Origin: Azolla caroliniana
Lineage: Eukaryota > Plantae > Polypodiophyta
Direction: 5' to 3'
DNA: 64,000 nucleotides
Assembly: GCA_043228905.1 (NCBI GenBank)
Contig: JBHGNT010000006.1
Location: 22,258,001-22,322,000, forward strand
The position numbers and the translations under genes were made by a program. The notes under the pieces are model-generated. The model was not told where the DNA came from. It saw nothing but the letters and a program-made list of their open reading frames with translations, and made no database searches. Numbering within the stretch: position 1 is the stretch's first letter; each line of letters starts with the position of its first letter. This document shows positions 19,186 to 64,000 of this stretch, in pieces.

Positions 19186-19475
19186 TATAACTAGCCTGTT
19201 TGTCTCTTTGTTTCTTTTTCAGCAAGCATAACAATATGAAAATGTGTATGGCATGAATTGTACTTACGAATTTAATACCGTTTCAATGAAAAACAAAACT
19301 TTACTAGAGAGAAAAAGAAACATAGTACATCTAATCCAATCAAATCATTCCACAATCGAGACTCATCAATTATGTTAGTAATAACAGGAGTTGCGATATT
19401 TTCACTGTCCTGGTGCTATTTCTCTCGGAATATGCATTTCTAAGGTTCCACTGGGAGAAACCTGTATCATTTGCC

Positions 19476-21615: not shown

Positions 21616-22248
21616 CACACATTTGTACATCCTTGTTGTCTTGAAGAATGCCAATAAGCATATTGATGATTGGGAGCATAGGACGTAAAATTCGTGTTTG
21701 TCTAGCATAACATTCGTTTTCCTATGTTGGAAAACGAATGCGAATGTTATTCAAACATGCTTGTGTTTTTTTTTGTTTTTTTCCCATTTTTTAATGTTTT
21801 TTTCCATTTTTAAGGCTTATTTACCTCATAATAAATAGTTAATCCAAAAGTATGGTATTTATCATTCTTTGAGGGTGTTTTTCTTACGCGAATGCGAATG
21901 CACATATGGTACGTATGGTTCATACTATGATTGGGACCATGAGGCTTTCACTTTATTTGTCTTTATTAACTCATAAATATACCAAGAATGGTGTTTTGTT
22001 CTTCATGGTTATATTGTAGAGAATTTCTAGTATAGTCTTGAAGAAGCTACAATCTTTTAGTATATCTATGAATTAGGCACCATATTCTAATCCTCTTAGT
22101 GAAAGACACAGTGGGATAAGGTCATGTTTTGGAGGTGCACAACACATGCATTGTTCTTCATCAAACTTCAACGATTCGAAAAAGTTGAAAAAACATACTT
22201 TTTAAAACCGAACAAGTTTTGAAGCTACAATGGCAATAGAGAGAGATG

Positions 22249-22751
22249 GATTACAATGTACCTTCAATCAAATCTAGACTTGATTGTTGCAGAATATGTA
22301 ATTCTTGTGACTGAGACCATATATCTCGATAATTGGGAGGATATGAAGCCTTGTCCTAGTTGTTCGTAAATGCCATGATTCTTCTCTAGCTTTCCAACAT
22401 GGCATCCCTCATAATAACCAAACTCAACCGAACCATACGATTGAACTATGATAAGAGGTTGTCGTAAATACCACAAGTCTTCTTTGCTATAAAGGATGCG
22501 ATGTTGGAATGCCAAAGAAGAATCATGGTATTTATGATGATCTCTTATCATAATTCAATCATATGGCTCGGTTGAGTTCGGTTATTACAAGGGATGCCAT
22601 GTTGGGATGCTAGAGAAGAATCGTGCCATTTATGAACAACTAGGACAAGGTTTCATATACCTCCCAATTATCAAGATATATGGTCTCTGTCACAAGAACT
22701 ACATATTCTACAACAATCAAGTCTAGATTTGATTGAATGTACATTGTAATC
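22249..22751. repeat. ~500-bp foldback (long inverted repeat, short loop)
   Basis: Left arm gattacaatgtaccttcaatcaaatctagacttgattgttg... is the reverse complement of right arm ...caacaatcaagtctagatttgattgaatgtacattgtaatc over ~240 nt; flanked by (GA)n and (TC)n. Confidence 0.9.
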
Positions 22752-22793
22752 TCTCTCTCTCCCCCCCTCCCCCCTACAGCCCAAAAAATGAGA

Positions 22794-29093: not shown

Positions 29094-30147
29094 AGGAGAA
29101 GGAAAGAGAAGGAGAAAGAGAAGGAAAAAGAAGGAAGAAAAACAGAGACAGAGAAGACGCAGAAGACGAAGAAGAAGAAACAGGGGATGGGATGAGGAAG
29201 TAGAGGAGGAGGAAGAAGAAAAGAGGAAGAAAGAGAGAATCCATATTATGCATTATGATGATGATGAATCGGCTATGGATTTCTTTCTACCTTTCTCTGT
29301 AATTTAATAGCTGGATCGCAACAGGGCACCCCTCAAAAGCTCTGAGATTATATTACAGGTAGCAACTAAAGAAAGAGAAAGAGAAAGAGAAATAGAGAGA
29401 GAGAGAGGGAGACATCACACACACATAATCACTCTCACACAGACAGAGAATAGCTCTTTTTTCTTCTCTCACCTAAAGAAGCTACATTATTTGTTTATTG
29501 CATGAGAAATCTCCCTTAATTCCTCCCTTCTAATATAATCATAGCTTTTCTTTCCATATCTGCACACAATATCACTTACTTCCCCTTTTCTTTTCTTTTC
29601 TTTGTCGGGCTCTGCTTTTGAAGAGAACCTCCAACATGTTTAGGGTTTCTTTGAAGGAGTCTTTGTCAAAATTAGGTTTTGTTTTCTGAAGGCATTCTTG
29701 GTAAATTATTATTTTTAAAATAAATCCTAGACATATTAGGGTGTTCCCAAAATTTTCAAGATATCGGTGGCGAGTTTTAAGCTCTTTTTTTTAGGGGTGG
29801 GGTGGGGAGAGGGGCTCTGGTTTTGAAGTAATCGTTGACAAATTAGGGTCTGTTTCTTGGGAAAAATATTCTGGTTTTAAACAATTCTTACAGGCTTCCG
29901 GGTGATTTTTTGGTGATGATTTTGAGGAAGTCCTCAACTTTTCTTGAACAAATTAAGGTAGAAATCTTTGATGTTTCTTCAACAAATTAGGGTGTTCCCG
30001 ACATTGCATCAACAAATGGGGGTTCTTGTTTGTTGAACCTCCAGATTGTGAAAGAAATTTGTTTTTCTCTTTGTTTTTTTCTATCATTTCATCAAAGCTC
30101 GAGCGAGAAGCGAAAGGGTATAAGTTGTACAACTGAGTCGATCCATT

Positions 30148-31199
30148 ATGGCTAATGATCAACGTAGTCATGGTGTTGGTATTGATGGTGCATCTATAGA
30201 CTGGTCATTTGCTACATCACAAGCTTATCTTCCTCCCAGAAGCCCTCTCTTCACGAGCGGAAGTTCAGGCAACCTTATCCCGGATAACAATAGCAACAAT
30301 AGTTTCTTCTCGAATTGGCCTAAACTTCCACATTACAACGAGTATGGTGGAAATGGGGTTTCTACTAACCGAAGACATCACCAGAGGACCCCTTCAACTG
30401 GTTTTCTTCCCGTACAGACACCTGCATGGGTCGATGACCTTCTAAACGATGCTCCAGATGTGCCCCCTCCTCCTGGAAAGATTTCTCACCGTCGATCTTC
30501 TAGTGATTCATTTGCCTTCATGGATCAAACCCCGATCTCTGATATGATGTCACCGTCGTCCTCAAACATGATATCGCCATTTTCAAACATGATGTCACCG
30601 ACATCCAATGTGGTCTCAAAGCATGGGAATGGATCGAGAGATATAGATGAGAGATCAGATGCACTTCAGAAGCATAGCACACTCTATTCAAAACCTTTCC
30701 CAAAGCATAATAATGCTGTCCAATCAAATGCCAATGTTAACAATGCTCACATGTCGACGCCAGAGAGGATAAATACCCCGCTTGGGAGCTCATCCGTACC
30801 TTCCGATCATGACAGTGCTAATGCTAGCTCTATGGATGAGAAGAAAACTAGAGGATTTGGGCAGCCAAAGATTGACACTGAAGTGCAAAGTGCTTTGAAA
30901 GCTGAACCTACCACACTATCGACAGGAAAAGGGGAGAGCTCTTCAATGAACGATTCAATTCTTGATCCAAAACGTGCCAAACGGTGAGATTGCTATACAT
31001 ATATATCCGCAACTCCATGTATATCTAGGGTTCCTTTACACAATAAATATCCTGTATGTGTTCCACAGATTTTGGGCGTTTTACACATCTTGTCTCTATC
31101 TCTTGGAATTTTAACTTCTTTTGAAAAGGCGAGTATAATATTGACAAATTTCAAGTTTGATTCCTGATCCCTGGGATGCTAATAGTCTGCCTCTCTCTC

Positions 31200-35632: not shown

Positions 35633-38600
35633 TCACGACCTCGGGCTGATTTTCAAAAGCAACCCAAAATGATCACTTGGTAACACAGGCAGCTTCATGG
35701 TTTGTGACGGTTTCTTCTTCACCTTCGTTTCCTTCTCGAAAGTAACTCCAGGGATTGGTTCCATACCAACTCGTTCAACACTCTTGAGTTGGAAGTTATC
35801 AAGTCGACAAAACATTCTGTCCAGCCTTTTCCTCAGCCGACTACCAAAAAGCATCGGATTCTCTTTGCTATCATATGTAAGCCCTTCCTATAACAACAAT
35901 AAAAAGGATCACAAAAATAAAAATGTCATTGTCATCATTCCTCTTTAAATATTCATAAACACAATGAAGGTGACATGTACATTTTAACGCCCATCATGTC
36001 CCATGAAGGGCAGAATCAAGAAACTAAAAGAAATGTATGAAGTGCCATATCCTATGATGATTTCGGAAATTTTTTGAACAAACTAAATGATGTTAAATTC
36101 CAGTAGTCTCATCTACTGTCAGAATTTGGAGTGGAAAAGGAGAAATAAAAAAGGGATTAAAAAAAAGAGTTCTAATTATTATTTTTTCGCTTCAAAAAGA
36201 GACGCAGTATTGGATGGTTAATATGCCCTTAAATTTCATGTCACAAAGCTACTAAAGTGTTTTCAAAATTTGAGCAGCATTTGATAGAAATAAAGCTCCC
36301 AAACAATAACATGGAAAGTGGTTGAGGAGCAATGATTGTAACAATTTTTTTAACATTATTGGTGTAATATAACCTACAAATAACCCTAATGGATGTAGCA
36401 TAAATTGATGAATAAGAGAAACAACCAAAACATAAGCATGCATACCTCATTGGGCCGTAGTGTCAACCATGCATCGCACCATCCTTGAGGGAGTGGGGGG
36501 TGGCCATCAAGTTTATCATCCCAATTCATATCACCACAGAACACGACATTTGGATGATCTTCTAGAGCATGAAATGCTTGCTTAGCTTGAGTGACACGTT
36601 CGATACTAAACATTTGATCCCATGTTGGAGGAGATGGGCAAGGACTCTCTAGATGAGTCGTCGCAACAACAAACTCTCTGCCTCCTGCTATATCTCCCAC
36701 TTTGGAAATACAAAGCTCCCTACCCATAACAGTATTGCAGTATGGACTCTTACTAAAGCTCGTCTTAGGTACTCTGCTCAACTGTTCAATTGCCAACAAA
36801 CATGAAAAAAATTCAATCAACCAAGCAATCTCTCTCTCTCTCACACACACATTATGTTGTGCATGTTGCACCAAACTACAAACCATCTTTTCAGAAGGGT
36901 GAAATTGCAATCATCAAATCATGCTAGAGCTCATCCCTTTATCTGCGATTCACACCATTGCATGAATACAACTTACTTTATACATTCTCTTTGATGCAAG
37001 ATGGAGCATTAGGACACAGATGAGGAGACACATCAACAATGCATTTCTCGCCTTGAACAAATGCTGGAATCAGACTATCATATTTTCATACAATGCAATG
37101 CATTTGACCACATTCGAGTTTTCTCGCACATTGTCAATCTGGTTCACTCCCTACACACACTACATTGTGTACTCTTGATTGCAACGTTTATGAGTACAGC
37201 TCTTGAACATTGATTCCACACTTACCATGTAAAAAGTGATTCAGATTTGGTCTCATAGGTCATATTTGAACTACAAGGATGATAATAAATTCTATCCATC
37301 TATTTCTCCCATGGACATTAAAACGATATTTATAACTATATCTATGTATATAGGAAGATTGATGGCTTTCTCTCCTACAAGAACGAATTAAGCAACAACT
37401 ATGATATCCTCTTACTTGAAGACAGAAGTAAGCTCGTTTCGAAGCGAATGACGGTGTTACCGAGCACTGATAGTCATTCCACCATGATGAACATTGGAAT
37501 AGGTTATAGATTACTGGGGTCACTTCCTGTATAATAAAAACATATAGTTTACATGATATAGATGCAAATATATATATATATATATATATAACATTTCCAA
37601 TGTTATTATCGTACAATGACCATGTACATCTGTTGTAAATCAAGCTTCTAAGTTTCAAAACTTAATGACAATAATGGTAATATAAACCAAATTCAATGAA
37701 GCACAAAAAAAACTTATACATGACAGAAGTACAAAAGACCAATGATAAATGAGAGCATACATACCTGTAAGCAAACAAAATGTGGGTTATGTTCACAAAT
37801 AATTCCGCCTATGGCATTCATTCTTGCGGTTAGTTCAAGGTCTTCTCTAAACCACACATTGTATGTCAACACAACTATACTCGAATTTCCATCCCCAACT
37901 GTACCAGCTCGCCTTCCTAAAGCCTTCACTACATTGTCACAAGATGAAAGGTTATCTTCTGGGGCAAATAAAACTGATAGACAAATTAATTCGACTTTCA
38001 TAAGAACCATCTTCATTGATAGTGTCTCGATATATCCCTCTCCCTAGAGAAATACACAACTAATATTAAAAATGCGTTCTAAATTGTTCAAAACTATCAC
38101 ATATGACATATCACTAAAAATATCTTCATTAGTAGGATCCAAAATATAATATTTTGCAGTCATGCAGTCAATATATGATAGCAATAATGCCATCATTACT
38201 CACATATGAAAAACATCATTAGAAAGACCTAAATTAGCAGATTCTCAGTATATAATTCTCATAGATGTTTTGCGAGTATGTACTAAGTATGTCCCATTCT
38301 CAAAATCAGAGAGATTTGTTTGCCAAATTATCTATAACTCTGTTCTTAATAAAATGTGATTATGTTAGAGATATTTACAGGAATACCTAGTGGCTGTTTT
38401 ATTCTGTCAATCCCCATAATCTCGATTTTCTGACCAAGCATGTCATAAGAAGCACTACCGGAGCTCGCATTGTCATCACCTGGAGATTTTCTCTTCTTGC
38501 TTCCATTAGAAGTGGTTGATCGGGCCATATTAGAGGCCAAATCCTCGGCGTCCTTGAAGAGAGATTCTTCAGTATTACCAATGCTCTTGAAGAGCGATTC

Positions 38601-39332
38601 TTCGTTGGCCTTGGTATTCTTAAATGGGGATTCCTTTGTTCTCTTTGTATTCTTTGTAATCTTGAAGACAGATTCATCATTGTTTTTGGTATTCTTAGAG
38701 AGAAATTCCTTTGCATTCTTCGTGAGAGATTCTTCTGTATTCTTAATATTCTTGAGGAGCAATTCTTCACCATCCTTCTTCACATTCTTGAAGAGGGAAT
38801 CTTCAAGATTCTCAAAGAGAGACTCCTTGTCATTCTTTTTCTTATTCTGGGATACATTGCTTTCGTTTAGGCTTTGTTGAACAGAAGTGAAAGTGCATGA
38901 CCTTAAGGGCCAGAACTTTGTCCCTTTCTTTCCTACCTTGTTCTCATCGTTACCTTCATCATCATCATCACCATCATCATCCAGTATAGAATCAAACTCT
39001 GCAAATGCATCAAGTGAGATGGAAGATTTGGGAGTTCCACATATATCACATAATACATCAACCTGTTTGTTAAGGAAAGTGCAAGCTCTACAGCCCCATC
39101 TAGATGTATCACGATCAAACAAAGAAGAAGAAGAAGAAGAAGAAGATGATGATGATGATGAAGAAGCAAAAAGCTTCAAAGATGGTGATTGTGATAATGA
39201 AGACAAAAACGGAGAAGGAAGAGAGGGGGAGGGAGGCAGGGGAGGAACCCTCTTAGTTTGTTGGCATACCTGACATGTGTTAGAGATGGCTTGGTTTACA
39301 AAAGTGCAAGATGAACAGCTCCAAAAGGCCAT
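35633..39332 (-). CDS. TDP2: Tyrosyl-DNA phosphodiesterase 2-like protein: two RanBP2-type zinc fingers plus EEP (exonuclease/endonuclease/phosphatase) domain
   Basis: Exons 39332-38387, 37958-37765, 37526-37416, 36781-36446, 35887-35633. Zinc fingers WSCSSCTFVN...CQVC and WGCRACTFLN...CDIC; catalytic motifs TYNVWF, LQEV, THLES, GDMN, LDRMF, PSDHFG. Confidence 0.9.
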
Positions 39333-39812
39333 AGCTCTGCAGAGAGAAGAAACAGGGGAGGGGGGGGAGGGTACATGCAGACCATAAAAACCTTAAATTT
39401 GTTCTAAAATATTTTTAAAAAGACAAAAAAATAGGATGCTCTGTTTCACATTTGAGAGATGGAGGAGAGAAGACAAGACAAGAAGAGTCTTTTGAAGAAG
39501 AAGAAGAAGAGTCTTTCTCATAGTGTTCTCGGATCATCATATTTGATGAAATCCCTGCGTCTGCATCGCAAAACCCATAGGCCCATCATCCATCATGGCC
39601 ACATCGGGTCTCGCCCGACAATTTCCGGGCTCGACTGACCAAAACCCCTCCTAAGCTGAACGCACTTCAAACTTGGCACTACGAACAAACCACGCGTGTC
39701 CACATCAGAGTACATAAGTGTTTCGATGTGGTCAACCCTATCAGTTGCTTGATTAGGCCTCTCAATGACTTTGATGTTGATCTTGCTCCCCGCCTTGATG
39801 CCATGTACGTGA

Positions 39813-50169: not shown

Positions 50170-53100
50170 TCACGATGCCTCTTAGGCGAAAGGAAATGAG
50201 TAGATATGATAACAAGTATACAACATACTCCAAGATGCTTTAATGAGGTTACATCACCATATGTTTACAAAAGAATTATCATTTTAGCCTTACCTACATT
50301 TGGAACACAAACCTCTCTTGTCACCCGGTTGACCACTCCGGCTCAACCAGTCTGGATTCGGTCCACTAATCCAGAGAGAAGTTGGACTACATTTGAACTT
50401 AATAATTGTAAAAATTTTATTCAATGTTCCAAACTTCCTTTTCGTTCACTTGTTTCTTCTAAATCTTTAAGTGAGTATTCTAGTTCATTAATTTATTTGT
50501 GTGTAATTGATCCTGCGCTTCAATTTTATTATTTTAATATTGACGCCACACAATTACCACATTATGAACAACGATTACTCGACTCAATTTTAGACGATTT
50601 TCAAGACGTGTTTCCTAACGAATTGCCACTTACTTTACCACCAAAACGTAATGTGAACCGTCAAATTGAACTCATATCTGGTGCTGCTCTTGTGAGCATT
50701 CCACCTTACCAACTTAGTCGATTAAAAGAGGATGAGATCGCTAAACAACTTAAGGAATACTTGAGTATGGGCCACATTAGGTATAGTAAATCACCTTGGG
50801 GTGCGTCAGTTCTATTAGTTAAGAATAAGGAAGGTTCATGGCGAATGTGTATCAATGATCACCGTTTGAATAAAATGACAATTAAAAATGCATATCCGTT
50901 AGCTCGTGCTGATGATTTGATTGATCGTTTGCATGGGGCCCAATATTTTATGAAAATTGACTTACGAACAGGTTATCATCATATTCGCATTGCCGAGGAT
51001 GATATTCCAAAAACCGCTTTTCGTACGCGCTATGGCCATTATGAGTTTTTAGTCATGCTTTTCTGGTTGACTAATGCTCCAGCCACATTCCAACAAGCAA
51101 TGAATGACGTTTTCCTAGATCAACTCGGTGATTTTGTTGTCGTATTCTTGGATGACATTTTGATATATAGTCGTACCTTGCAAGATCATGTTCAACATGT
51201 TCGATTTGTTTTGCAAAAGTTGCGTGACAACTCTTTCTATGCAAAACATTCAAAATGTGATTTTTTCCAAAAATCTATTGCATACCTAAGTCATTTAATT
51301 ATGGAAAATGGCGTTGAAATTGAATGTTCTCGTATTGAAAAGGTTAAACTTTGGCCCATTCCTCATAATATTCGTGAGCTGCGATCATTCTTAAGGTTTG
51401 TTGGATTTTTACGAAAATCAATTCGTAGTTATTCCAAATTGACTACGCCATTACCTGACCTTTTAAAAAGTCATCCACGTAAGTCTGTCAAACCAATTGC
51501 ATGGAATGAACAACTTGACAAATCATTTGAGACACTCAAAAAGCATGTGTGTCAAGCTCCCACTCTTCTATTACCAGACCCTTCTAAGCCTTTCTCAATC
51601 GAAACCAATGCTAGTGATTATGCTATTGGTGTTGTTCTTTATCAAGGCGGTCACCCTATTGCTTTTGAAAGTAAGAAGCTTGATGCTGCTCAATCTCGGG
51701 ATTTGGTTCAAGAGAAAGAGTTGTTTGCGGTAATGCATGCACTTAAAACATGGAGGCACTATCTCTATCATGAACATCGATTGTTCATCTATGACAATCT
51801 CTATGGAAATAAATTTATGGTTACAACATACCATCAATCATTGAAGTATTTTTGTGACCAACCATATCTTGTTGGTCGTAAAGGCAGTTGGGCTGACCTT
51901 ATGCAAGATTTTGATTTTTCCATATGGTATCGCAAGGGTTCTATGAACACTGTTGCAGATGCTCTTAGTCGCATTAAAGAAGTTAACATGCTTAGCTTCA
52001 CGGAAATAAAATCTGATCTTTTAAATCACCTTCGAGGGAAATACCCTGATGACAGTTATTTCTCAAAATACTGGATGAAAGCTGAATCTGGTTTAGATGT
52101 CGTTACTAGCACTCTACCCTCGAATACGACCTTTCACATTTCAAACGGTTCGCTCTACCGTAGTGGAAAGGTCTGTGTTCTAGATTTACCAAACGTAAAA
52201 TAGAAAATTCTTCATGAATGTCATGATGCACCATCTGCTGGTCATCCTGGAATACAACGCACACTCTTTCTAATCTCGAGTACTTTTTTCTGGCCTAAGA
52301 TGCGCTTTGACGTGCATAAATACGTAACTCAATATGGAACGACTTAAAGCTGCTAGTCTATTAAATCCCTTAGATATTCCTGTTGAGAGATCAAGCTCAA
52401 CTTAGGTTAGTTAGTTTGTCAACCATGTAACTTCGTAGTTACCTAGATAGAATCTAGTTAGAAGTGTTGACTATAACGCCTTAGATAGGACCTTGTACTT
52501 AAGTAGGATAATCTAGATCCTCCACTCCCAAGGTCATTTAATATAGGATTTACATAGTTGTACCTATATTCTCCTCACACATGTGCATCCTTGCACATGA
52601 GATCTATATATACCTCATTGATGATATTTTTGTATTTTGATGATGATAATGCTAATTTAATATAGTTACTCATCCCCCATCTTGTGTTGTTCATAAGTGT
52701 ATCTCTCTCTCTCTCTCTCTCTTCCTCTCACCCACATATACACACATATCACTTAATCTTCCGCTTATCACCTTGCCTTACCCCGTAACGTTTGTAATCC
52801 TTAAACGAGTTGGGTCATCTGCTTATCACCTTGCCTTACCCCATAACGTTGGTATTCATCCTGTTTTTCACGTCAGTCATGTAAAACCGGTTTTAGGCTC
52901 TGGTGTTCACACCATCACAATACAAGATCTTGTAACATTAGAGGATTTTTCTTACAAACCTCATGTTCCTGAACAAATTCTTGATTCTCGTACTAAACGT
53001 TTACGTTCTAAAGAGATTCGACTATTCAAGATCAAATGGATGGATAAACCTATTGATGATGGCACATGGGAATGCAAGCATACTCTTAAGGCACAATTTC

Positions 53101-53618
53101 CTCACTTTATATTGCAAGAGTGCAATCTTTTAAAGTAGGGGAGTATGTTATGTACATATAATGTTGGTGAGGGTAGGTCACTAATATTTATATTAGTGAA
53201 GGGTATGTTCACTAATGTTAAAAAGGGGGCTAATGTGATTAGATAGAAGGAATGATAAGTGCATGCACTAACATGATTTGGGCAACCAATGAATGAAGAT
53301 CCTTTTAGAAAGGCACATCTATTCAAGGGGCCTAGGAAAAGGTATAAATATGAGGCTTAGCTACCCTCATAAGGATTACATTGAAAGGCTATTGTCTTAG
53401 ACACCGGTGGTGCGATCTAGGCTTTCGTCTTGATGATCATCTTTATCTCTTCCAAGGTATTAGTCATCCTAATATCCGGCGGTATGGGACGTTGGTGGTA
53501 GGTTGGCTATGTCTAGATCATAGCTCGAGGGTGGTCGGGTGGAACGAGTTCTTCTATCCAATATATTTTCCTTCTTTTACTTTAGTTTGGTCTATTGATT
53601 AGTAATAGATTCTTAACA
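50170..53618 (+). mobile_element. Decayed Ty3/gypsy chromovirus-type LTR retrotransposon (RT-RNaseH, integrase ZF, chromodomain, PPT, 3' LTR)
   Basis: ORF 50206-52203 has RT (KIDLRTGYHHI, PKTAFRTRYGHYEF, VFLDDILIYS) and RNaseH (ETNASDYAIG, EKELFAV, NTVADALSR). Integrase ZF HECHDAPSAGH follows a stop. Chromodomain EQILDSRTKRLRSKEIRLFKIKW..TWE in ORF 52773-53138. PPT agtaggggagta, then LTR 53146-53618 (TGTTA...TAACA). Gag, protease and integrase core are missing. Confidence 0.9.
52381..52757 (+). mobile_element. Unrelated LTR-like insert at the integrase deletion point
   Basis: Starts TGTTGAGAG and has TATA-like, (CT)n and (CA)n tracts typical of small LTRs; 3' end unclear. Confidence 0.5.
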
Positions 53619-53958
53619 ATTAGATAGATCCAAGTGTATCAGGTGAAATCGTTGATGAAGGAGACAAAATACCGATTCCCGCCAATGCTCACGTTTTGTG
53701 CCGGTCCCCACACATCCGAATGGATGAGATCAAGCCGGTTCTGGCTTCGATTCTTCTCATTGGGGAATAGAAGCCTATGTTGCTTCCCAAGCTGGCAAGC
53801 TTCACATATTTGGCCTTTCCGACCACTGAACTTCGGTAGTCTGAAAACTACGTGTTTCGACTGCAACTCTTGAAGCTTCTGTAAATTGATGTGTCCAATC
53901 CGCTTGTGCCACAAGTCAATGTCCGACTCGACCTTTTGCCCTTTCATGAACATAGTGG
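53619..53958 (-). mobile_element. Ty1/copia pol fragment (GAG-pre-integrase and integrase N-terminus)
   Basis: LWHKRIGH...CEACQLGKQHR...LDLIHSDVWGP...YFVSFINDFT; cut on the left by the gypsy LTR and on the right by the foldback LTR. Confidence 0.9.
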
Positions 53959-55469
53959 CGTCGTGTGGTTCTTCACACATGATATGAAAAATAGTGAAAT
54001 AATTATTTTAGATTAGATTAATGGCTTGGTATAAAAAGATAGACATCTTCAATAGTATCAAAACGCATTTTACTACATATAAAATGGACAACTACATGTC
54101 AAGTTATGTTAATATGAAGTTTGAGAAGATAAGGAAAACATAATTGTCAAATATCCCACATAGATAAGAAACTTTTGGATCCAACACTATATAAGTAGGT
54201 TGAGAACCATTAGTTTATATCTATGTGTTAAGAGCATAGAAGGAATGGTTGAACTTGGGCTACACTTTTCAGATGGACTAATGTGGCTTTACATACATAG
54301 ATATAAACTAATGGTTCTCGACCTACTTATATAGTGTTGGATCCAAAAGTTTCTTATCTATAGTGTTGGATCCATTCCTTCTATGCTCTTAACACATAGA
54401 TATAAACTAATGGTTCTCGACCTACTTATATAGTGTTGGATCCAAAAGTTTCTTATCAATGTGGGATATTTCATAATTATGTTTTCCTTATCTTCTCAAA
54501 CTTCATATTAACATAACTTGATATGTTACAATTGTCCATTTTATATGTAGTAAAATGCGTTTTGAAGCCATTAATCTAATCTAAAATAATTATTTCATTA
54601 TTTTTTATATCGTGTGTGAAGAACCACACGACATTCACCCCCACCAAACCTACACATCCACCGGTATGTGACAATTGTGGTGAGGTTTTATCCTTCAAAC
54701 CAGACGGACGGACGATGACAGAACTGGACTGGACGGATTGGATCGGATTAGATGCAACTGGGTCGAATAGATCGGGCCAGATGCAACCGAACGGATCAGA
54801 TGGGCAACGGTCGAGACGGACGGATCATGCACGGGCCGAACTTTACGGATGATAAGATCATGTGAATGAACTAAAGTAAAGTAAAGTAAAGTAAAGTAAA
54901 GGTCATGTGGATGCATGCAATTGAACTCAAGATGGAAACTGGAGTTCCTTCATGCAAGTACGAGAAGGGAGGAGAAAAGTTATCTCTCGATAATCCATAG
55001 ATCCTAATGGTCCTTAGGGTATCGAATCCATCTCTCATCGACGCCAAGAATCCTAATTATCTTATCGAATCCATCTCTCATCGAAGCCAAGAATCCTAAT
55101 TACCTTATTGAATCCATCTCTCAAGGAAGCTAAATACCCTAATTTTCTAATCGAAGCCAAAAACCCTAATTTTTTTATCGAAGCCAAAAACCCTAATTTT
55201 TTTTATTGAAGCCGAAAACCCTAATTTTTTATTGAAGTCGAAAACCCTAATTTTTTTTATCGAAGCCTAAAACCCTAATTTTCTTATCAAAGCCATATCT
55301 CACAAAGCCTAAACTTCAGTAATCCCAATCTTGGGATTGATTGTAATTTTTCTTTTCCTTTGGTAATGAAAAATATCAAAATTTCTGATTTTCATTAATT
55401 CTTAATACATAACGCAAGAATTTGATATCCTCTGGTCGAAGCCCCCGAGGTCCTGCCTCAAGTTCACGA
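53959..55469 (-). mobile_element. Element C: 3' end of a non-autonomous LTR element whose LTR (53959-54633) is a foldback
   Basis: Termini (C)GTCGTG...CACGACA, followed by the PPT complement TTCACCCCCACC and hairpin CACATCCACCGGTATGTG, the same arrangement as in elements A and B; interrupted at 55470 by element A. Confidence 0.75.
55021..55310. repeat. Graded tandem array (43-bp units changing to ~28-bp telo-box units)
   Basis: atcgaatccatctctcatcga(c/a)gccaagaatcctaatt units change into at(c/t)gaagccaaaaaccctaattttttt units; an (AAAGT)n tract lies at ~54873-54900. Confidence 0.85.
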
Positions 55470-58400
55470 TGTCGCGTTATTACGCGCGTGCGTGTAGGAA
55501 TGGGCGGGACCACGGGGGTCTCGGACGAGGAAGAGATGGGTGTCGAGAAGCCGACTTTTCTCCAGTTTGGGTTAGACTGGTTGTGGTGCACCCCAGAGTG
55601 ATTCCGGACGCATACCAGCGGCTACCGAACACGAGAGAGGAAGAGAGAGAGAGAGACCACACGCACAATACCGACTCAACACACCTCTTGTGTACAGGAA
55701 ACAAAGGGGGAGAAACGCACCTGACACCAACATAGACACAAATACGCACAACCTTATTTATATATATAAATATAGGTGCAAGATACAATACCAGCTTTGA
55801 GCCGGACCAAGGGAGGTTAGGTTGCAATAGTCGCCTACTGCCAAGCTGCTAATCGGGGAGCTCTCGGGCTCGTCGCGCTGAGCGGGGTCTTGCACAGGAG
55901 ACCGAGCAGAAGCAGACCCCACTGAACATACAAGCTCTTTACCGAGTTGAACCCTAAACAGACACGAAGAAGAAGACCTCAAGAAACTCTAAAGTAAGAA
56001 GAACTAACACACCTTCGACCTAAGTGGTATACCCTCCTAACTCAAAATGGGCAACCACTTCAAAAGGGACCCCTCCCTTCCTTTTATAGCCCAAGGAAGG
56101 AGAGGCGTTACAATGTGGGATAAATTCCCGCATCTTATTCTATACATTGTTTCCTACTTTACACGTGCACATGTTGCACACCACCGACTTGCTCGTTCCA
56201 CCCCGGTTTCAAACAATAGCCGGAAATCTTCATGACATCCACCCCCACCAAACCGCACATCCACCGGTATGTGCCAAGAAAGGAAAAGGGTGAGAGATTT
56301 CGGCGACAGTGATTAACCGGGTCATCCGCCTTACCGGCACCCGACCATCTTGCCGGCTCCTTACCGGCGCTGACCCGTCTTGTCGGCTCCTTATCGGCCC
56401 CGATCCGTCGACTCCATCCGACCCACTAGGTCTAACGTTGCGCCTTCCTCCCCGGTCGGTCCTCCCGGATGCCGTTGTCGACTTGGCCACTCCGACTTTG
56501 TCCACCATGTATGCCCTTCGATTGGGCCCCCGGTCACTTCGGTTGTATGTCGGATTCTGCGCCTCGCATGCCGCGTATGTCCCTCCGTCGGTTCGATTGT
56601 CTCCGTGCTCGCCTTCCACAGGCACTTCCCGTGTGTCGTTATCGTTCCCCGAATGCGCATTCGTTCTTCAATCCTTGGGTGACCCCAATACACTCTCCTT
56701 GTTCCTTCTATGGCCACCGTGCCGTGTGGCGTCTTCCGACTTCCTTGTTCGGCACCGCCTGTGCCAAATGTCGTCCCTTACCCGTGCTTGCTTCGGCCCT
56801 CGATGGCCACTCGCACGTCTCTTGTTCCGTTCCGTGCTTACCCCTCACCGGCTTCCTCCCGAAATCGTAACGGGCCAGAAAGGGTTCGGCCACCATCAAC
56901 TCCAGCCTTGCCTGCTCTCGATCCGCTCTTCCTGCATTGCCGGTTCCTGCTTCCTGCCGCCACCATCCTTCTCACTCGGTCTCACGTTGCCACATCGGCT
57001 TGAACTGCCAGTGTCTCCGGGTTGGTGTGAGGATTCCATAGGACCGATCTTTCTTTCTCTTCTCCCTCCATCCGCTTTGTCTTCCAGCCCGGTTTTGGTT
57101 AGTGGCCGATTGCCGTCCCTTTGCTTGATCCCGCTCACCTACTGCCACCATCTTTCTCACTCGGTCTCACGTTGCCACGTCGGCTTGAACTGCCAGTGTC
57201 TCCGGATTGGTGTGAGGATCGCCGTAGGATCGCCCATCCGCACTTCCCACATCGTGGGTTCCCGTTTCCTGCCGCCACCATCCTTCTGACTCGGTCTCAC
57301 GTTGCCATGTCGGCTCGAACTGCCGGTGTCCCCGGATTAGTGTGAGGATCCCATAGGACCGGTCTTTCTTCCTTTGCTTCCGAATCGGTTTGTATAGGCC
57401 GTGACCTCCACGTCCTCGCCACCACCCGCCTTCTCTCCGGTCTTATGTTGATCTGCAACCGCCGTAGTCTCGGGAACGAGTGTGGAGGACCCATACTTCA
57501 GTCAACCGCCTCTTCCGTTTCTCTTCGTCACCGTTGTTCCCCTTTCTTGCGCTTCCCCAACATCTCCCTTCTCTTTCGGTCCCACGTTGCCATGTTGGCT
57601 CGAACTGCCGAAGTCTCCGGTCAAGATGTGGGGTAACCGATTTCGTAACGACTCTCGACGACTCGTCCCAAGCCACCGACCCTTTTAGTGGTGTCGGTGG
57701 ATAGCATCCGTTCTGTGATCAACCAAGCCCGCCTGGGCTTGATTCTCCAATGTCCAGAGTTTCGGCTCCGATGCCAATCCCGCCAGACTCATTCCGAACC
57801 CTTGATCATCTTCCTTTCGATTCCCGACCTTCGCCCGATTGGTCTTTCTCCCCATGTAAAAGAGGGCGGCTCGTTCCGCACCTTCTCCCGTATCGGCACC
57901 TTGATGCCGATTCTAGCCCCGGTCGAACAATCCACGACCGGATCGCGCTCCACCTAAATCGGAGCGCCGTGCGGTTCAGTCCCTGGTCGGGTCGTTTCTT
58001 GGTCTCTTCGTCGACCTTCTCGCGGGCCATCTCCCATCCATCTTCGCTGGCATTGTGCCAGGACTCCTCGATACTGTCATCCTTCTCCTCGGTCTCACAT
58101 GGGCGTAAGGGCTTGAATGCCGAGTTCTCCGGAATTGGTTCCGACGGCTTTTGTCCGTTCCTTTCACGTATCATCTCGCCAACGATTCTCGGTCTCACGC
58201 TGCCGCCTTTCTCCTCTTGGGATTCATGTGGGCACTCGGGCCCAACTACCGTCGTCTTGGGACCAAGAGTGGGAAGACGCGTAGAATCGCCCATCCTATT
58301 TACGTGTAGAATCTTCGTGGTCGGCGGTCGTCTCCTTACCGATCACGCAAGCCCCGCCTGGCCTTGCTTCTCCAATGTCCGGAGCCTCGGGCTGACGTGC

Positions 58401-59424
58401 CCGAAACCGCCGGTCCCAACGTTCCGATTCTGCGACCGGTATATTGGCCTTGTCCTTGGTCGTTCTATCTCCGTAGTCTGAGAGGGCGTTTTGTTCCGCA
58501 CCGTCTCCTGTGCTACTGTGGTACCAGTCTTCTGCCATCTTGTGGGGCAAGCTCGTCTCCTCGGTGTCGGCTCGCGGCCTTGGTCTTTCCTCTTCCTCGA
58601 GCATTGCCTCGAGAGCTACATACGCCTCCGCAATCCTGGCCCCGATGCCGAGCCTTGCTGACTCTCTTTGCCGTTCAGGCTCTTCCCGCTATGATGGCAC
58701 GCCGTTGCGCGCCTTCCTCTTAGCCTTCTTGGCTTGCTCGTCATCTACCCGTTGGCATACCCTTCTGACCTTCGACCAGTCCTCCGTAAGGCCATTCGCT
58801 CCATCCGCGTCTTCGAGCTCAATCCTGATGGGCTCCCGTTCCGCTCGGTTGATCGACCTAACGAACAATAGGACTTTGTTCACCCCCACCAAACCTTGCT
58901 CTCGCTCCGGGAGACGAGCAAGCCATCGCTCGAACTCTCGGAACGTCTTCGTTGCGCCCCGGTGGGTCTTCGCCGATGCCACCCACTAGTCGAAGCCGCG
59001 TCTTCCTCGGCTCTTCCGCCGTCCTCGATATGCCTGCATGAGCGCCTCTTCGAAGGCCTCCCACGAACTATGAGCTTCTTGGAGCTCCTTCACTTCCGTG
59101 TGCATGCGGATGACGACGATCCGACAGAAGAACTCCAGCCTCAATGCCTCGTCTACATTTCGCTCCTCCATTTCCGCATTGTAGGATTCCAAGTAGAATG
59201 GGACTTTGTCCCTGTTGAAACGGCCGACTCTTTCGACCACTCGCTCAACCGCTTGTTGCGTCGTCTCTCTTCTTGTTGTTGCTCGTCCAAACTCCCTCAC
59301 CGCCTCAATGAAAAGTTACCTGAAGTCGTCTTCTTCCAACTCCATTCTCCCTTGCCGCCCCTTCACGTCGGGTTCACCAAATATGTCGCGTTATTACATG
59401 CGTGCATGTAAGAAGGGGCTGGAC
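55470..59424 (-). mobile_element. Element A: gag-only LTR retroelement with tRNA-Trp PBS, gag pseudogenised, 5' LTR truncated
   Basis: 3' LTR 55470-56237 (TGTCG...TGACA), PPT and hairpin 56255-56274. Gag in stop-broken frames (58986-59300 and 58689-58982: FNRDKVPFYLESYNAEM...WEAFEEAL...FD*WV...NGLTEDW). PBS TTCACGTCGGGTTCACCA at 59362-59379. Only ~40 nt of the second LTR (59384-59424). No pol motifs. Confidence 0.85.
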
Positions 59425-59973
59425 TGTCGAATACGAGTGTATAATGGCCGTATTCACACTGTCCCTTTGGACAACCCAAGTTCGGGCTATTTCTGTAAAT
59501 AGCATAAAGGGCAGTTGCCCTAGGATAGTCACTATATAAAGTGACTTTGTAACCTTTAGTGAAGGTTGGTTGTCATTTGTAATGATTGCTATTGGAATAT
59601 AATTGTTCCTTTGTGCCTCTCTCTCTCTCTCTCCCCCTCTGTGTCTATCTTGCTCATGCATACACAGATTCCTTCATCACGAATGTTGCTTGCACTTCCT
59701 TCCGCATTAACGACCTTGCCATAAGACCATACCTCAAACCCCATGTAATTTTTCATTTATAATGTTAATTACATGTTTTTAATTATGCTTCTCTCCCTCT
59801 CTCTCTCTCTTCTAATCGTGTCTTAATTATGTTTCTCTAGTTCGTAATAGCACCTCTCTATTTCATTTCTATTAGTATGGTAATCCTCTTCCCTCCCCGT
59901 AACCCTTGTTTTTAAATTTTAATTATGTTTTTCGTCTCGTATTTTAGTTTTAATCTTAGGTTTATTTATGTCT

Positions 59974-60007
<34 letters not shown>

Positions 60008-60091
60008 AGTTTTAATCTTAGGTTTATTTACGTTTTAATCTCTCACTCTCTCTCTTTCTCTTTAGTTTTAATCTTAGGTTTATTTATGTTT

Positions 60092-60137
<46 letters not shown>

Positions 60138-60498
60138 TTTAATTAGTATGTTAATCCCCCTCCCTTTAAGCCTATCTTTTAATTTTAATTTCTTCTTAAT
60201 TACCCCACCCTTTACTTTATTTTTAGGTTCATGTTTCTAGATTTAGATTTCATGTTTGTTAGTTTTCGGGTTATGTTTTTTGTTTTAGTGTTTATGTTTC
60301 TAATCTTAGTGTTTTAAACCCCCACCCCTCTTCCTTTTTGTTATTCCTAATCATGCCGGCTCCCTCTCCTTTCTTCTACCTCGTCTTCGATTCGGGTGCG
60401 CTCAAATCGAGCGTGGTGTTCCTCTTCGCCTACCTCTACCCGCCGATTATCGACCATTCCGCACTCCTTGTTCCGACCGTAAGGTCCATAAACTTACA
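59425..60498 (+). mobile_element. Truncated unrelated LTR element (LTR ~59425-59679, AT/CT-rich leader, possible ORF start)
   Basis: TG...CA bounded ~255-bp segment with TATATAAA, then (CT)n-rich tandem repeats; inserted in element A's second LTR. Confidence 0.5.
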
Positions 60499-60566
60499 AT
60501 GACGACGATCCGACAGAAGAACTCCAGCCTCAATGCCTCGTCTACATTTCGCTCCTCCATTTCCGC

Positions 60567-63500
60567 TGTCGTGCCTTTCGGCTCCGGATCGTTTGCGTGA
60601 GTCGGGTGGGAACCACCGGGGTTTTGGACTAGGAGGAGGAAGAATTTGAGGCTAATCTTGTGAATCCCACAAGTATTACATTAATCAATATTTATGTAAG
60701 AATATGAATTTAGATTGAAAGAGATAGATTATCTTAAACTTCGTGAATCCCACGAGTATATTTTATTAATTGGTGTTTTAGGAAATATATCCAATTTCCC
60801 AAATATTTTTCACACACCTATTACATTGTGCTCCCCATCCTTATGTAGTGATGGGAGAGACTAAGCATAGCTACATGCTTTTTTTAATCCTTGCTTTTAT
60901 TTGCTAAATATAGTGCTCATGCACGCTAGATGTGCATGAGTCACTTTTTAGTCGCTTGCGTTTTTCTATAAAATATTCACGCACTCTAAAAATACATGAT
61001 TTACCTTTTAATAAAGGTAGGCGCAAATAAAGCACTTATAGTTATTAAATCTATTTATAGAACACTAAAGATAAGGTAGCATAATGGTAAAGTTGAAGTT
61101 TGGCTACGTGGAGGTACAAGGTTCAAATCTTGCCCTATGCACGTGATAAATATCTTGATATTCTTATTTTATTTATTGGTGATAAATATCTTAATATTCT
61201 TATTTTATTTATTTATATGTAATTAAATCGGTTATATTATTTTTACTTTTTCACGTAGTGTACGAAATACACTACGACACTCGCCCCCTCCGAACCCGCA
61301 CATCCTCCGGTATGTGCCGAAGTTGCCGATGCTCGTTGTCTCCCCTTCATCCTCCGTTTATCCCGCTATGTCAACTTTGTCTCTCCATTTTGAGTAGACC
61401 CATTCTTTCCACGCGAACCATTGTCGCCATCCGATCGACCATATTCTTTGTTCTCTCTCATCATATTCTTGGCCCTTGTCATTCGTGGTAGTGTCTTTTA
61501 CTAGCCTCTTTCTTGTCTTCATCAACCTTGACTTTTTTCCGGATCGCTCTCGTCCGATCAACTTTTGATTTGATCGGCTTTCGATCGGATTCGTATTCGG
61601 TCGAATCGGAATCGGTTGTTCGGTTTTGATTGAGTCGGTCTCCTTCCGGCCCGGTTTCGATCTATCGGTTTTGGTTTCGGTTGGCTTTCTTTTCCTCGTT
61701 TTCACCAGCCTCGACCGGTCCAACCTTCGATTGAGTCGGATTAGCTTCTTTCCGGATCCGTCTCGTCCGATTGGCTTTCGGCTAGGTCGGCTTCCATCCA
61801 TATTCGCGTTCGGCCAAGTCAGAACCGATTCGACCCCTTTTCGGGTCGGCTTTCTTTCGGGTCGTCTTTCGGCCGAATCCTCATTCGCCCAGTTCGGCTT
61901 TCGTTTGTGTCGTCTTTCGGCCGAATTCTCTTCCTTTCGGTTCGGCTTTTTTTCGGGTCGACTTTCGGTCGAATCCTCTTTTACCCGGTTAGACTTTCTT
62001 TCGGATCGGAATCCCGTCCGGATCACCTTCCATCCTAACTGGCTTCCGACTTTACCTTTCTTGCCGCCACCTCCCGTCTCTCCGGTCTCACGTTGCTTCT
62101 CAGACACAACTGCCGAAGTCTCTAGGATTAGTGGGTAGGAATCCTCGGTATTATCATCCTCCATTGTTTCACCCATAGCCATATTCTCGGCTATCTCTCC
62201 GTCGTATGCATCGACTTCGACCTTTGTTTTCTCTCCGCCACCTTCCGTCTCTTCGGTCTCACGTTGCCTTTCGAACCCAACCGCCGGAGTCTCTGGAATT
62301 AGTGGTGGGGAAGTCTCGATATGGCCATCTGTCGTTGATTCGTCCATAGCCACCTTCAATTCGATGTCATCTTTCGTGGTGACCTCCTCAATCACATCCA
62401 CTTCACACTCTTTATCTGCATCAATTATGCAAACATCTATTATGCTTACCCCTTTTTGACCCGATGTCTCGGGCACTTGTATCCCGAAATTTCCTTCTAC
62501 ACTTGAATTATCGGCCTTATCCTTCGCCATCGTTCTTTCACAAGACGAGTGGGTGTCTTGTTCCACTCTTTCTCCCGTGGTACCATCATGTTGTATTTCG
62601 GCCTTCATATTGGCTTCATCGTTTTTCCTCAATCGACCATCCTTCATGGGCCATGTCGTTGTTGACGAGATTCTCATCTTCCTCTCATCATGTCTCCGGC
62701 ATACCCTTTCGACTTTGGCCCAATCCTCGGTAAGGCCGTTCGCACCGTCATCATCTTCGAGTTCGATCCCAATGTCCATCCTTTCTTTCCGATCGATCGA
62801 TCTTACGAACATTAAGACTTTATCTTCTCCCACCAATCTTCGTTCCCGCTCCGAGAGTCGAGCAAAACGATGCTCGAACTCTAGGAATGCTTGTGTTGCA
62901 CTTCGGTGGGTCTTCTCCGATGCCACCCATTCGTCGAATTCTCGCCGATCTTTTCCCTTCGATCTCTTGTAATCATATGCCTCTCGTAAAGCTTCTTCGA
63001 ATGATCCCCATGTCAAGTTTTGTTGCCGTATCTTGTGGATTCTCTCTTGTAGCTCATCCGTGGCCACCCGATTGAAGGATGTCACTTGCAATCCTTCTGG
63101 TATCCCACATCGTATCATCTCCGCCTTGTAGTCACGTAGATAGCATGACACATCGTTTCCGTTGAATTGTCCATTTCGTTGTACGAGCCGCTTTACTGCC
63201 CCCGTGATCTCCGACATCGCTCGTTGTTCTTGTAGCATCCGCTCGAACATCATCATCATCGTTATGCTCATTGCCTCTTGTTGATTCTCCATCTCCTTGC
63301 CACCCGCCTTCACGTCGGGTTCACCAACTGTGTCGTGCCTTTCGGCTCCGGATCGTTTGCGTGAGTCGGGTGGGAACCACCGGGGTTTTGGACTAGGAGG
63401 AGGAAGAATTTGAGGCTAATCTTGTGAATCCCACAAGTATTACATTAATCAATATTTATGTAAGAATATGAATTTAGATTGAAAGAGATAGATTATCTTA

Positions 63501-64000
63501 AACTTCGTGAATCCCACGAGTATATTTTATTAATTGGTGTTTTAGGAAATATATCCAATTTCCCAAATATTTTTCACACACCTATTACATTGTGCTCCCC
63601 ATCCTTATGTAGTGATGGGAGAGACTAAGCATAGCTACATGCTTTTTTTAATCCTTGCTTTTATTTGCTAAATATAGTGCTCATGCACGCTAGATGTGCA
63701 TGAGTCACTTTTTAGTCGCTTGCGTTTTTCTATAAAATATTCACGCACTCTAAAAATACATGATTTACCTTTTAATAAAGGTAGGCGCAAATAAAGCACT
63801 TATAGTTATTAAATCTATTTATAGAACACTAAAGATAAGGTAGCATAATGGTAAAGTTGAAGTTTGGCTACGTGGAGGTACAAGGTTCAAATCTTGCCCT
63901 ATGCACGTGATAAATATCTTGATATTCTTATTTTATTTATTGGTGATAAATATCTTAATATTCTTATTTTATTTATTTATATGTAATTAAATCGGTTATA
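60567..64000 (-). mobile_element. Element B: intact, very young gag-only LTR retroelement with tRNA-Trp PBS
   Basis: 3' LTR 60567-61279 (TGTCGT...ACGACA, 713 bp). 5' LTR from 63331 to window end, with no difference seen over the visible ~670 nt. PBS 63309-63326, PPT GGAGGGGGCGAG, ~2.05-kb interior with one ORF. Confidence 0.92.
61358..63292 (-). CDS. Gag-like capsid protein (644 aa from first ATG) with long acidic then basic repetitive tail; no protease, RT or integrase
   Basis: FNGNDVSCYLRDYKAEM...WGSFEEALREAY...FDEWV...FEHRFARLSERE...KVLMFVRSID...NGLTEDWAKVERVC, closely paralleling element A gag; first ATG lies ~16 nt from the PBS. Confidence 0.85.
   Translation of the reverse strand: MENQQEAMSITMMMMFERMLQEQRAMSEITGAVKRLVQRNGQFNGNDVSCYLRDYKAEMIRCGIPEGLQVTSFNRVATDELQERIHKIRQQNLTWGSFEEALREAYDYKRSKGKDRREFDEWVASEKTHRSATQAFLEFEHRFARLSERERRLVGEDKVLMFVRSIDRKERMDIGIELEDDDGANGLTEDWAKVERVCRRHDERKMRISSTTTWPMKDGRLRKNDEANMKAEIQHDGTTGERVEQDTHSSCERTMAKDKADNSSVEGNFGIQVPETSGQKGVSIIDVCIIDADKECEVDVIEEVTTKDDIELKVAMDESTTDGHIETSPPLIPETPAVGFERQRETEETEGGGEKTKVEVDAYDGEIAENMAMGETMEDDNTEDSYPLILETSAVVSEKQRETGETGGGGKKGKVGSQLGWKVIRTGFRSERKSNRVKEDSTESRPEKKPNRKEENSAERRHKRKPNWANEDSAERRPERKPTRKGVESVLTWPNANMDGSRPSRKPIGRDGSGKKLIRLNRRLDRSRLVKTRKRKPTETKTDRSKPGRKETDSIKTEQPIPIRPNTNPIESRSNQKLIGRERSGKKSRLMKTRKRLVKDTTTNDKGQEYDEREQRIWSIGWRQWFAWKEWVYSKWRDKVDIAG

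What the first reader, a model, noticed from the sequence alone, without database searches (positions are those of the whole stretch)
53959..64000. Nested family of gag-only, tRNA-Trp-primed LTR retroelements with conserved cis-ends but unrelated LTR bodies
Seen: three minus-strand elements (C from 53959, A from 55470, B from 60567) share TGTCG...GACA LTR termini (C has C at base 1), LTRs of similar size (675, 768 and 713 bp), a G-rich PPT and a hairpin 18-19 nt from the 3' LTR. A and B also share an identical 18-nt PBS 4 nt from the LTR, related gags that start right after the PBS, and no pol. Their LTR interiors show no similarity by eye. Established: TTCACGTCGGGTTCACCA is the 3' end of plant cytosolic tRNA-Trp, and gag-only non-autonomous elements (TR-GAG) are known in plants. 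Inference: this is a non-autonomous family that supplies its own capsid, borrows RT and integrase in trans, and tolerates or swaps whole LTR bodies while keeping only the ends needed for priming and integration. Such modular LTRs in a Trp-primed lineage may be undescribed.
Basis: partly seen in the sequence, partly recalled or inferred. Interest (0 to 1): 0.8.

Follow-up and report, generated by a model that had tools for sequence, protein, structure and literature searches.

The report
Capsid-only retrotransposon borrowing helper front ends
This is a nest of jumping genes in what is likely a fern, in which an enzyme-less, capsid-only element carries front ends matching several different enzyme-bearing relatives, which suggests it likely survives by switching helpers through recombination, a new example of an already known kind of parasite-on-a-parasite.

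Summary
Partly confirmed. B is an intact, recently inserted non-autonomous LTR element: identical LTRs and a 644-aa ORF (two-lobe capsid plus tail; no zinc knuckle, protease or pol). A is a decayed relative. C is misread: its '675-bp LTR' is a plus-strand LTR of about 1.2-1.5 kb holding an inverted PPT-U3 fragment of its own family, and its coding status is not visible. A fourth LTR-like piece (D) cuts A's 5' LTR. Autonomous partners with the same PBS, CGACA end and PPT hairpin were found. They fit REXdb's Phygy profile (Trp PBS, NCGN sites, no chromodomain or extra RNase H), so Trp priming is known. Unrelated LTR bodies are ordinary: helper families also share none. What is notable is that the non-autonomous capsid C-lobe forms one clade under purifying selection, yet its members carry LTRs, leaders or N-lobes of different helper families. 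B's capsid switches from helper-like to non-autonomous at the lobe boundary, and some relatives keep only one lobe. Gag-only elements, gag recombination and LTR swapping are all published, and short-read contigs may be mosaics. Verdict: new variant of a known kind; interest 0.4.

The parts
63331..64000 (-). B 5' LTR, cut by the window end (would end near 64043)
   Evidence: 670 of 670 nt identical to 60567-61236
63309..63326 (-). B primer binding site, 4 nt from the LTR
   Evidence: its complement equals the 18-nt small RNA listed as miR894 in PMC5846777 Table 3; tRNA-Trp identity recalled
62972..63292 (-). B ORF residues 1-107: N-terminal helix and capsid N-lobe, helper-like
   Evidence: 70 of 101 identical to gag-protease P0007, 36 of 101 to non-autonomous P0005; Arc N-lobe match at model 38-108, Z 8.7, rmsd 2.0, 69 aligned
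62678..62971 (-). B ORF residues 108-205: capsid C-lobe of the non-autonomous clade
   Evidence: 36 of 98 to P0007, 71 of 98 to P0005; clade 100/100; Arc C-lobe match at 112-205, Z 8.3, rmsd 3.0, 79 aligned; dN/dS 0.15-0.28
61358..62677 (-). B ORF tail: acidic, then Lys/Arg-rich (31%), then a Trp-rich end; no CCHC or protease motif
   Evidence: no Pfam family for the whole ORF
61280..61316 (-). B hairpin (61299-61316) and G-rich polypurine tract
   Evidence: same motif in 13 distinct loci, among them pol-bearing L015, L022, L038
60567..61279 (-). B 3' LTR, 713 bp; 3' flank GCGG (NCGN)
   Evidence: 346 nt at 76% to the LTR of L010, which has a helper-type C-lobe
60499..60566 (-). exact 68-nt duplicate of A gag 59110-59177, into which B inserted
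59425..60498 (+). D: LTR-like piece (TGTCG...TTACA), no matching flanks, unassigned family
   Evidence: junctions; first 122 nt 91% to L062; LTR status inferred
59384..59424 (-). 41-nt remnant of A's 5' LTR (U5 end)
   Evidence: 86% to A's 3' LTR end
59362..59379 (-). A primer binding site
58690..59345 (-). A capsid region, two in-frame stops; N-lobe of P0005/P0006 type, C-lobe in the non-autonomous clade
56274..58689 (-). A decayed tail with internal repeats; no pol remnant
   Evidence: tblastn hits to non-autonomous tails only
56238..56273 (-). A hairpin (56256-56273) and polypurine tract
55470..56237 (-). A 3' LTR, 768 bp; 3' flank TCGT (NCGN), inserted about 24 nt from the U5 end of the C-family LTR
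54777..55469 (+). R/U5 part of a plus-strand C-family LTR
   Evidence: 76-85% to L064 LTR positions 560-1177
54290..54697 (-). inverted C-family fragment: 3' stub, hairpin (54653-54670), PPT and partial U3
53959..54288 (+). U3 part of the plus-strand C-family LTR
   Evidence: 79% to L064 LTR positions 2-313
53639..53958 (-). Copia-type pre-integrase fragment that hosts the nest
   Evidence: PF13976, E 1e-16

Best explanation
B and the decayed A belong to a non-autonomous, Phygy-like Ty3/gypsy lineage that encodes capsid plus a tail but no enzymes, and that likely persists by picking up the LTR, leader and capsid N-lobe of different helper families through recombination. Shown: B's structure; helpers with the same PBS, CGACA end and PPT hairpin; one clade of non-autonomous C-lobes that is never followed by knuckle, protease or pol; B's capsid switching parent at the lobe boundary; L050 joining a helper's LTR and capsid to the non-autonomous tail. 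Inferred: RNAs of parasite and helper are co-packaged, reverse transcriptase switches template, and the hybrid inherits a promoter and N-lobe matched to the active helper. Inferred and untested: the protein co-assembles with helper Gag, and the basic tail stands in for the missing nucleocapsid. The unrelated LTR bodies arose by ordinary divergence among helper families.
For: A PBS scan gave 121 loci of about 340 estimated; 92 of 121 matches have GACA 2-8 nt upstream. L015, L022 and L038 carry gag-CCHC-protease and pol ORFs ending in the same hairpin and PPT. Of 35 matches with a scorable C-lobe, 16 of 26 helper-type ones are followed by knuckle/protease or pol, against 0 of 9 non-autonomous-type ones, 4 of which are too short to tell. 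Among 150 listed representatives, 0 of 12 non-autonomous-type proteins with 90 or more residues after the match have CCHC, against 3 of 3 helper-type ones. Trees: B's N-lobe groups with P0004/7/8/9 and L010 (99/99), its C-lobe with A and 14 others (100/100). Triplet test: 42:8 informative sites favour the helper in residues 1-107 and 8:43 in 108-205, p 2e-12, with 9 of 9 triplets at p under 1e-7. The C-lobe data reject grouping B with P0007, p-AU 3e-5. L050's 3' LTR is 97.8% identical over 732 nt to pol-bearing L016's, while its tail is 67% identical to P0015's. L045 starts with L038-type residues fused to the non-autonomous C-lobe. dN/dS is 0.15-0.28 for the C-lobe, with intervals below 0.6 in 6 of 6 pairs. 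Runs X1 and X4, from the organism that best holds the window, cover L038 at 85% or more in 30 of 30 bins.
Against: The N-lobe data do not reject one non-autonomous clade (p-AU 0.14, 71 columns), so rate shifts are not excluded by that test alone. All relatives are short-read contigs, and the families share 40-50 nt at PBS and PPT, where assemblies can jump. L038's two LTRs are only 75-77% alike, and L015's second element has a 3' LTR unlike its upstream LTR, so I dropped it as swap evidence. B's LTR is only 76% alike over 346 nt to L010, which is scored as a helper on about 40 residues; B's actual helper was not recovered. A, L012, L027 and L062 match no helper LTR beyond about 120 nt. Selection is weaker than in helper capsids (0.05-0.11), and the tail gives 0.45-1.04. 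P0010-P0013 lack the C-lobe, so it is not indispensable. The loci may come from other species than the window.
Confidence: 0.68

Rival explanations
1. There is one ordinary old gag-only lineage whose LTRs and N-lobe simply diverged fast, and the apparent swaps are short-read mosaics plus uneven rates.
For: p-AU 0.14 for the N-lobe; mosaic LTRs in L015 and L038; several members match no helper LTR.
Against: B's switch lies inside gag, in the window itself, and recurs in P0002 and L003. B-L010 N-lobe dS is 0.65, lower than dS among non-autonomous C-lobes (0.78-1.13 for B against L045, L064, L033, L015b). L050 has self-consistent LTR ends (97%).
Confidence: 0.17
2. The protein is kept not to help packaging but as an interfering capsid fragment, like the Ty1 p22 C-terminal-domain restriction factor, which limits or redirects helper particles.
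For: C-lobe-only ORFs with different in-frame starts (L064/P0014, P0015, L045/P0016, L015b, L033) under purifying selection (L045 against L064, 0.17). Ty1 p22 and Drt2 structures are among weak fold hits.
Against: B itself has both lobes and identical LTRs; N-lobe-only versions exist (P0010-P0013); the fold hits are generic capsid lobes. The p22 mechanism is recalled beyond the PDB titles.
Confidence: 0.12
3. A, B and C are local deletion derivatives of pol-bearing copies.
For: A is decayed and C is a rearranged fragment.
Against: No pol or protease remnant; of the 16 clusters, P0004, P0007 and P0008 show knuckle and protease and the 13 others show tails instead; purifying selection; identical LTRs in B.
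Confidence: 0.03

Closest known systems
Phygy (REXdb non-chromovirus Ty3/gypsy; PMC6317226)
   Same: Trp-type PBS, NCGN insertion sites, no chromodomain, no extra RNase H, coding region filling the interior; helpers about 7.3-8 kb (my estimate) against 7.7-10 kb.
   Different: Described there as specific to Physcomitrella (later also reported in a liverwort, PMC12885004); here the host is likely a fern. No non-autonomous Phygy appeared in my searches. No Phygy reference sequence could be compared.
RLG_Quinta / RLG_Cereba of wheat (PMC11302176)
   Same: Old non-autonomous lineage with GAG plus an unknown domain; termini, PBS and PPT shared with the helper; recombination involving gag.
   Different: Quinta has one named helper and is centromeric (CRM lineage). 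Here front ends match several helper families, and one-lobe versions occur.
TR-GAG (PMC4350172)
   Same: Under 4 kb (B about 3.5 kb), LTR-PBS-single gag ORF-PPT-LTR, multi-copy, no protease, RT or integrase.
   Different: TR-GAG1 has a zinc finger, a Leu PBS and Copia-type gag, and TR-GAGs are described with 5-bp duplications. B has no knuckle, a long tail and NCGN flanks.
LTR swapping between soybean autonomous and non-autonomous partners (Du et al. 2010; title seen only) and chimeric beet non-autonomous families (PMC13570524)
   Same: Recombination reshuffles LTRs and internal parts between partners.
   Different: Here the crossover also falls inside the capsid gene, at the lobe boundary.

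Membership tests
Phygy | RT/RH/INT fall in the Phygy clade | not testable with these tools
   REXdb fasta and Additional file 1 were too large to read. The nearest named proteins among the 120 listed are Riccia sorocarpa polyproteins, up to 71%.
Phygy | tRNA-Trp PBS | tested here: inconclusive
   The 18-mer ends in CCA on its complement, follows CGACA in many families and equals a conserved plant small RNA; the Trp assignment is recalled.
Phygy | 4-bp NCGN target-site duplication | tested here: inconclusive
   One-sided flanks are NCGN in 4 of 5 checked (B GCGG, A TCGT, L064 ACGG, L038 CCGC; C-family LTR GTGG). No element shows both flanks.
Phygy | no chromodomain, no extra RNase H in pol | tested here: met
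   Pfam on L015 and L038 pol: RT, one RNase H region and integrase; no chromodomain at E up to 0.1.
TatI (also Trp PBS, 4-bp duplication) | additional RNase H domain | tested here: not met
   Only one RNase H region in both pol ORFs.
TR-GAG | LTR, PBS, PPT; under 4 kb | tested here: met
   B about 3.5 kb. A, with two full LTRs, would be about 4.7 kb; C cannot be judged.
TR-GAG | single ORF similar to GAG, no protease, RT, RH or INT | tested here: met
   644-aa ORF; capsid fold; Retrotrans_gag look-alikes at 0.93-0.94 with low shared-feature counts; no enzyme hits.
TR-GAG | two or more copies | tested here: met
   P0002 (85%, 5 members) and L003 (88% over 1025 nt); many near-identical contigs in runs X1, X4, X5.
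TR-GAG | 5-bp target-site duplication; transcription | not testable with these tools
   B's second flank is outside the window; no raw RNA run was available.

The most novel reading that the evidence does not exclude
A satellite retrotransposon that parasitises a whole clan of helpers: its conserved capsid C-lobe with a charged tail inserts into the particles of any Trp-primed helper, while LTR, leader and N-lobe are replaced at each helper turnover, and C-lobe-only forms act as mobile p22-like modulators of helper capsids.
Probability: 0.2. Interest if true: 0.7.

Novelty: new variant of a known kind. Interest (0 to 1): 0.4.

Why it matters
How non-autonomous LTR elements find and keep a helper is unresolved: in sugar beet only 30 of 115 families could be linked to one (PMC13570524). 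This system offers one traceable core with datable helper changes, a natural capsid chimera split at the lobe boundary, and one-lobe variants under selection, so helper switching and the role of parasite-encoded Gag become testable. It would also extend Phygy-like elements to a likely fern. It does not overturn anything: each ingredient has a precedent.

Tried and rejected
No whole genome is held, so no genome-wide clustering was possible. The viral-contig scan found 0 matches. Rfam found 0 matches in the window. Pfam found nothing for B's ORF. Foldseek gave no hit at E up to 0.001, although capsids led the list. The hairpin region alone folds only modestly (z -1.8, 10 of 200 shuffles as good), and covariation was not tested. 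No RNA holder was listed; this says nothing on expression. Contig depths are not copy numbers and were not used as such; no contig spans the nest, so the D and C junctions are not confirmed independently. L015's second element was first read as an LTR swap and then dropped. My idea that C's stub is the end of a non-autonomous ORF was dropped. A suspected RNase H remnant near 56900 got no tblastn support. Rows L107, L030 and L116 were left out of the trees, L025, L007 and L027 also out of the AU tests, and L014 (duplicate of L015) out of the counts. Earlier findings of the scan: none returned. Literature listings (one search listed 20 of 122) showed no title or abstract start on non-autonomous Phygy or fern gag-only elements; subscription papers are not covered. 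Searches did not establish the tRNA origin of miR894.
Full report
Observation. The lengths (675, 768, 713 bp), the shared 18-nt PBS 4 nt from the LTR in A and B, and the hairpin 18-19 nt before the 3' LTR are in the sequence. B is the only complete element: LTRs identical over 670 of 670 visible nt and one open frame of 644 aa at 63292-61358. The interiors of the A, B and C stretches score within shuffles against each other. Two helper pol proteins find nothing in 53500-64000, and three gag-protease proteins hit only the capsid region.

Corrections. C is not a third gag-only element. Window 53960-54288 and 54777-55468 match the 1.2-kb LTR of locus L064 on the plus strand, and 54290-54697 is an inverted piece of the same family with stub, hairpin, PPT and part of U3. 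The two U3 copies agree at 247 of 256 aligned nt, which creates the fold-back seen. A inserted about 24 nt from that LTR's U5 end. A's own 5' LTR is reduced to 41 nt by an LTR-like piece D (59425-60498); 68 nt of A's gag are duplicated on D's far side, and B sits in that duplicate. The order is Copia fragment, C-family LTR, A, D, B. The host is likely a fern: a PPR gene in the window has most of its top named hits in Adiantum and Ceratopteris, at about 34-48% identity.

Helpers. B's N-terminal 215 aa found 16 protein clusters. P0004, P0007 and P0008 continue into a CCHC knuckle and protease motif. A PBS scan of metagenome contigs returned 121 loci of about 340 estimated; 92 of 121 matches follow GACA at 2-8 nt, 47 of them at 4 nt. 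L015, L022 and L038 have gag-protease and pol ORFs and end in the same hairpin and PPT. Pol of L015 and L038 has RT, one RNase H region and integrase, and no chromodomain. REXdb Additional file 5 lists Phygy with tRNA-Trp PBS in 81%, 4-bp NCGN duplications in 100% and no extra domain, and TatI with Trp in 75% but an extra RNase H. Four of 5 one-sided flanks checked are NCGN. The nearest named RT-RH relatives are from the liverwort Riccia, up to 71%. I call the lineage Phygy-like; phylogenetic membership could not be tested because the REXdb sequence supplements were unreadable. Runs X1 and X4, of the organism that best holds the window, cover L038 in 30 of 30 bins at 85% or more.

Are unrelated LTRs special? 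No. Among nine helper-type loci, only the four of one family group (L016, L038, L040, L055) share LTR sequence; L015, L018, L010, L032 and L080 share none, while four pols are 69-84% identical in RT-RH. LTR bodies diverge fast throughout this lineage.

The non-autonomous core. A model of B residues 1-205 (pLDDT 85.8, pTM 0.49, 17 sequences) matches Arc, PNMA2 and Copia capsids at the top of 48,161 chains (best Z 9.9, rmsd 9.6, 160 aligned). Its lobes are at 38-108 and 112-205. These Z values are moderate for a helical fold, but the top 26 rows are all capsid-type entries. In the C-lobe tree A, B and 14 other rows form one clade (100/100), while B's N-lobe groups with the P0007 helper family (99/99) and A's with P0005/P0006 (100/98). 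Informative sites favour the helper 42:8 in residues 1-107 and the non-autonomous P0005 43:8 in 108-205 (p 2e-12; 9 of 9 triplets agree). The AU test rejects B with P0007 on the C-lobe (3e-5) but does not reject one non-autonomous clade on the N-lobe (0.14). None of 9 loci with this C-lobe is followed by knuckle, protease or pol (4 are too short to tell), against 16 of 26 with a helper-type C-lobe; the representative search agrees, 0 of 12 against 3 of 3. dN/dS is 0.15-0.28 in the C-lobe, 0.24 in the N-lobe (B against L003), 0.45-1.04 in the tail and 0.05-0.11 in helper capsids.

Front-end exchange. B's LTR resembles L010's (346 nt, 76%), and those of L064 and L045 resemble L055's (610 nt at 78%, 341 nt at 74%). 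L045's ORF opens with L038-type residues fused to the non-autonomous C-lobe. L050 has a 3' LTR 97.8% identical over 732 nt to pol-bearing L016's, and 87% DNA identity over the capsid ORF, but a tail 67% identical to P0015's. Against this: the loci are short-read contigs that can jump at the shared ends; L038's LTRs are only 75-77% alike; L015's second element was dropped because its 3' LTR differs from its upstream LTR; and A's group matches no helper LTR well. Several relatives keep only the C-lobe (L064, L045, L015b, L033, P0014-P0016) and four only the N-lobe (P0010-P0013), so self-sufficient capsid supply is unlikely for the lineage as a whole.

Mechanism. Shown: structure, helpers, mosaic gag and selection. 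Inferred from general retroelement biology (recalled): co-packaging, priming at the shared PBS and PPT, integration through the shared ends, and template switching that hands the parasite a helper's promoter and N-lobe. Untested: expression, co-assembly and the function of the tail.

Comparison with the literature. TR-GAG is defined as under 4 kb with a single gag ORF (PMC4350172; abstract and passages), and B meets the testable parts. Wheat Quinta encodes GAG plus an unknown domain, shares termini, PBS and PPT with Cereba, and shows recombination around gag (PMC11302176; passages). Beet non-autonomous families are modular and chimeric (PMC13570524; abstract, section 35 part 1 of 2 and section 42). 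LTR swapping in soybean was seen as a reference title only. Also read as passages: PMC6317226 (plus Additional file 5 whole), PMC7466625, PMC6911290, PMC12885004, PMC5846777 and PMC12877858. The listings showed no non-autonomous Phygy-like or fern gag-only element.

Verdict. A real non-autonomous lineage with likely helper switching, in a little-studied gypsy clade: a new variant of a known kind. Interest 0.4.

Noticed in passing
window 59362-59379 and 63309-63326 (+ strand): The PBS complement is letter for letter the most abundant 18-nt 'miR894' small RNA in Cryptomeria (PMC5846777 Table 3), which maps there to gypsy repeats; the authors left its role in silencing open. It is likely a tRNA 3' fragment able to pair with every PBS of this lineage (inference).
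   Followed up: partly
window 59110-59424 and 60499-60566: D appears to be flanked by a duplication of about 315 bp of A (LTR end, PBS, gag start), suggesting an aberrant insertion or recombination between two D copies; testable in the next window.
   Followed up: partly
L028 230-1619 and L078 (minus strand): Two further pol-less elements with the same PBS and hairpin but no match to this gag; L078 has a 646-codon low-complexity frame.
   Followed up: partly
P0009: Helper-type capsid followed by a different knuckle-less tail: possibly a second, independent non-autonomous lineage.
   Followed up: no
window 50200-53138 (+): Decayed chromovirus pol (RT, RNase H, SH3, chromodomain).
   Followed up: no
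window 22239-22761: Long inverted repeat (arms of 102 and 146 nt, 87-93%), MITE-like or another fold-back.
   Followed up: no
window 16675-19218 (-), 30124-30987 (+), 36386-39392 (-): Host genes: an 847-codon PPR frame with 306-nt repeats, a likely bZIP exon and likely TDP2-like exons (the last two named by eye).
   Followed up: partly
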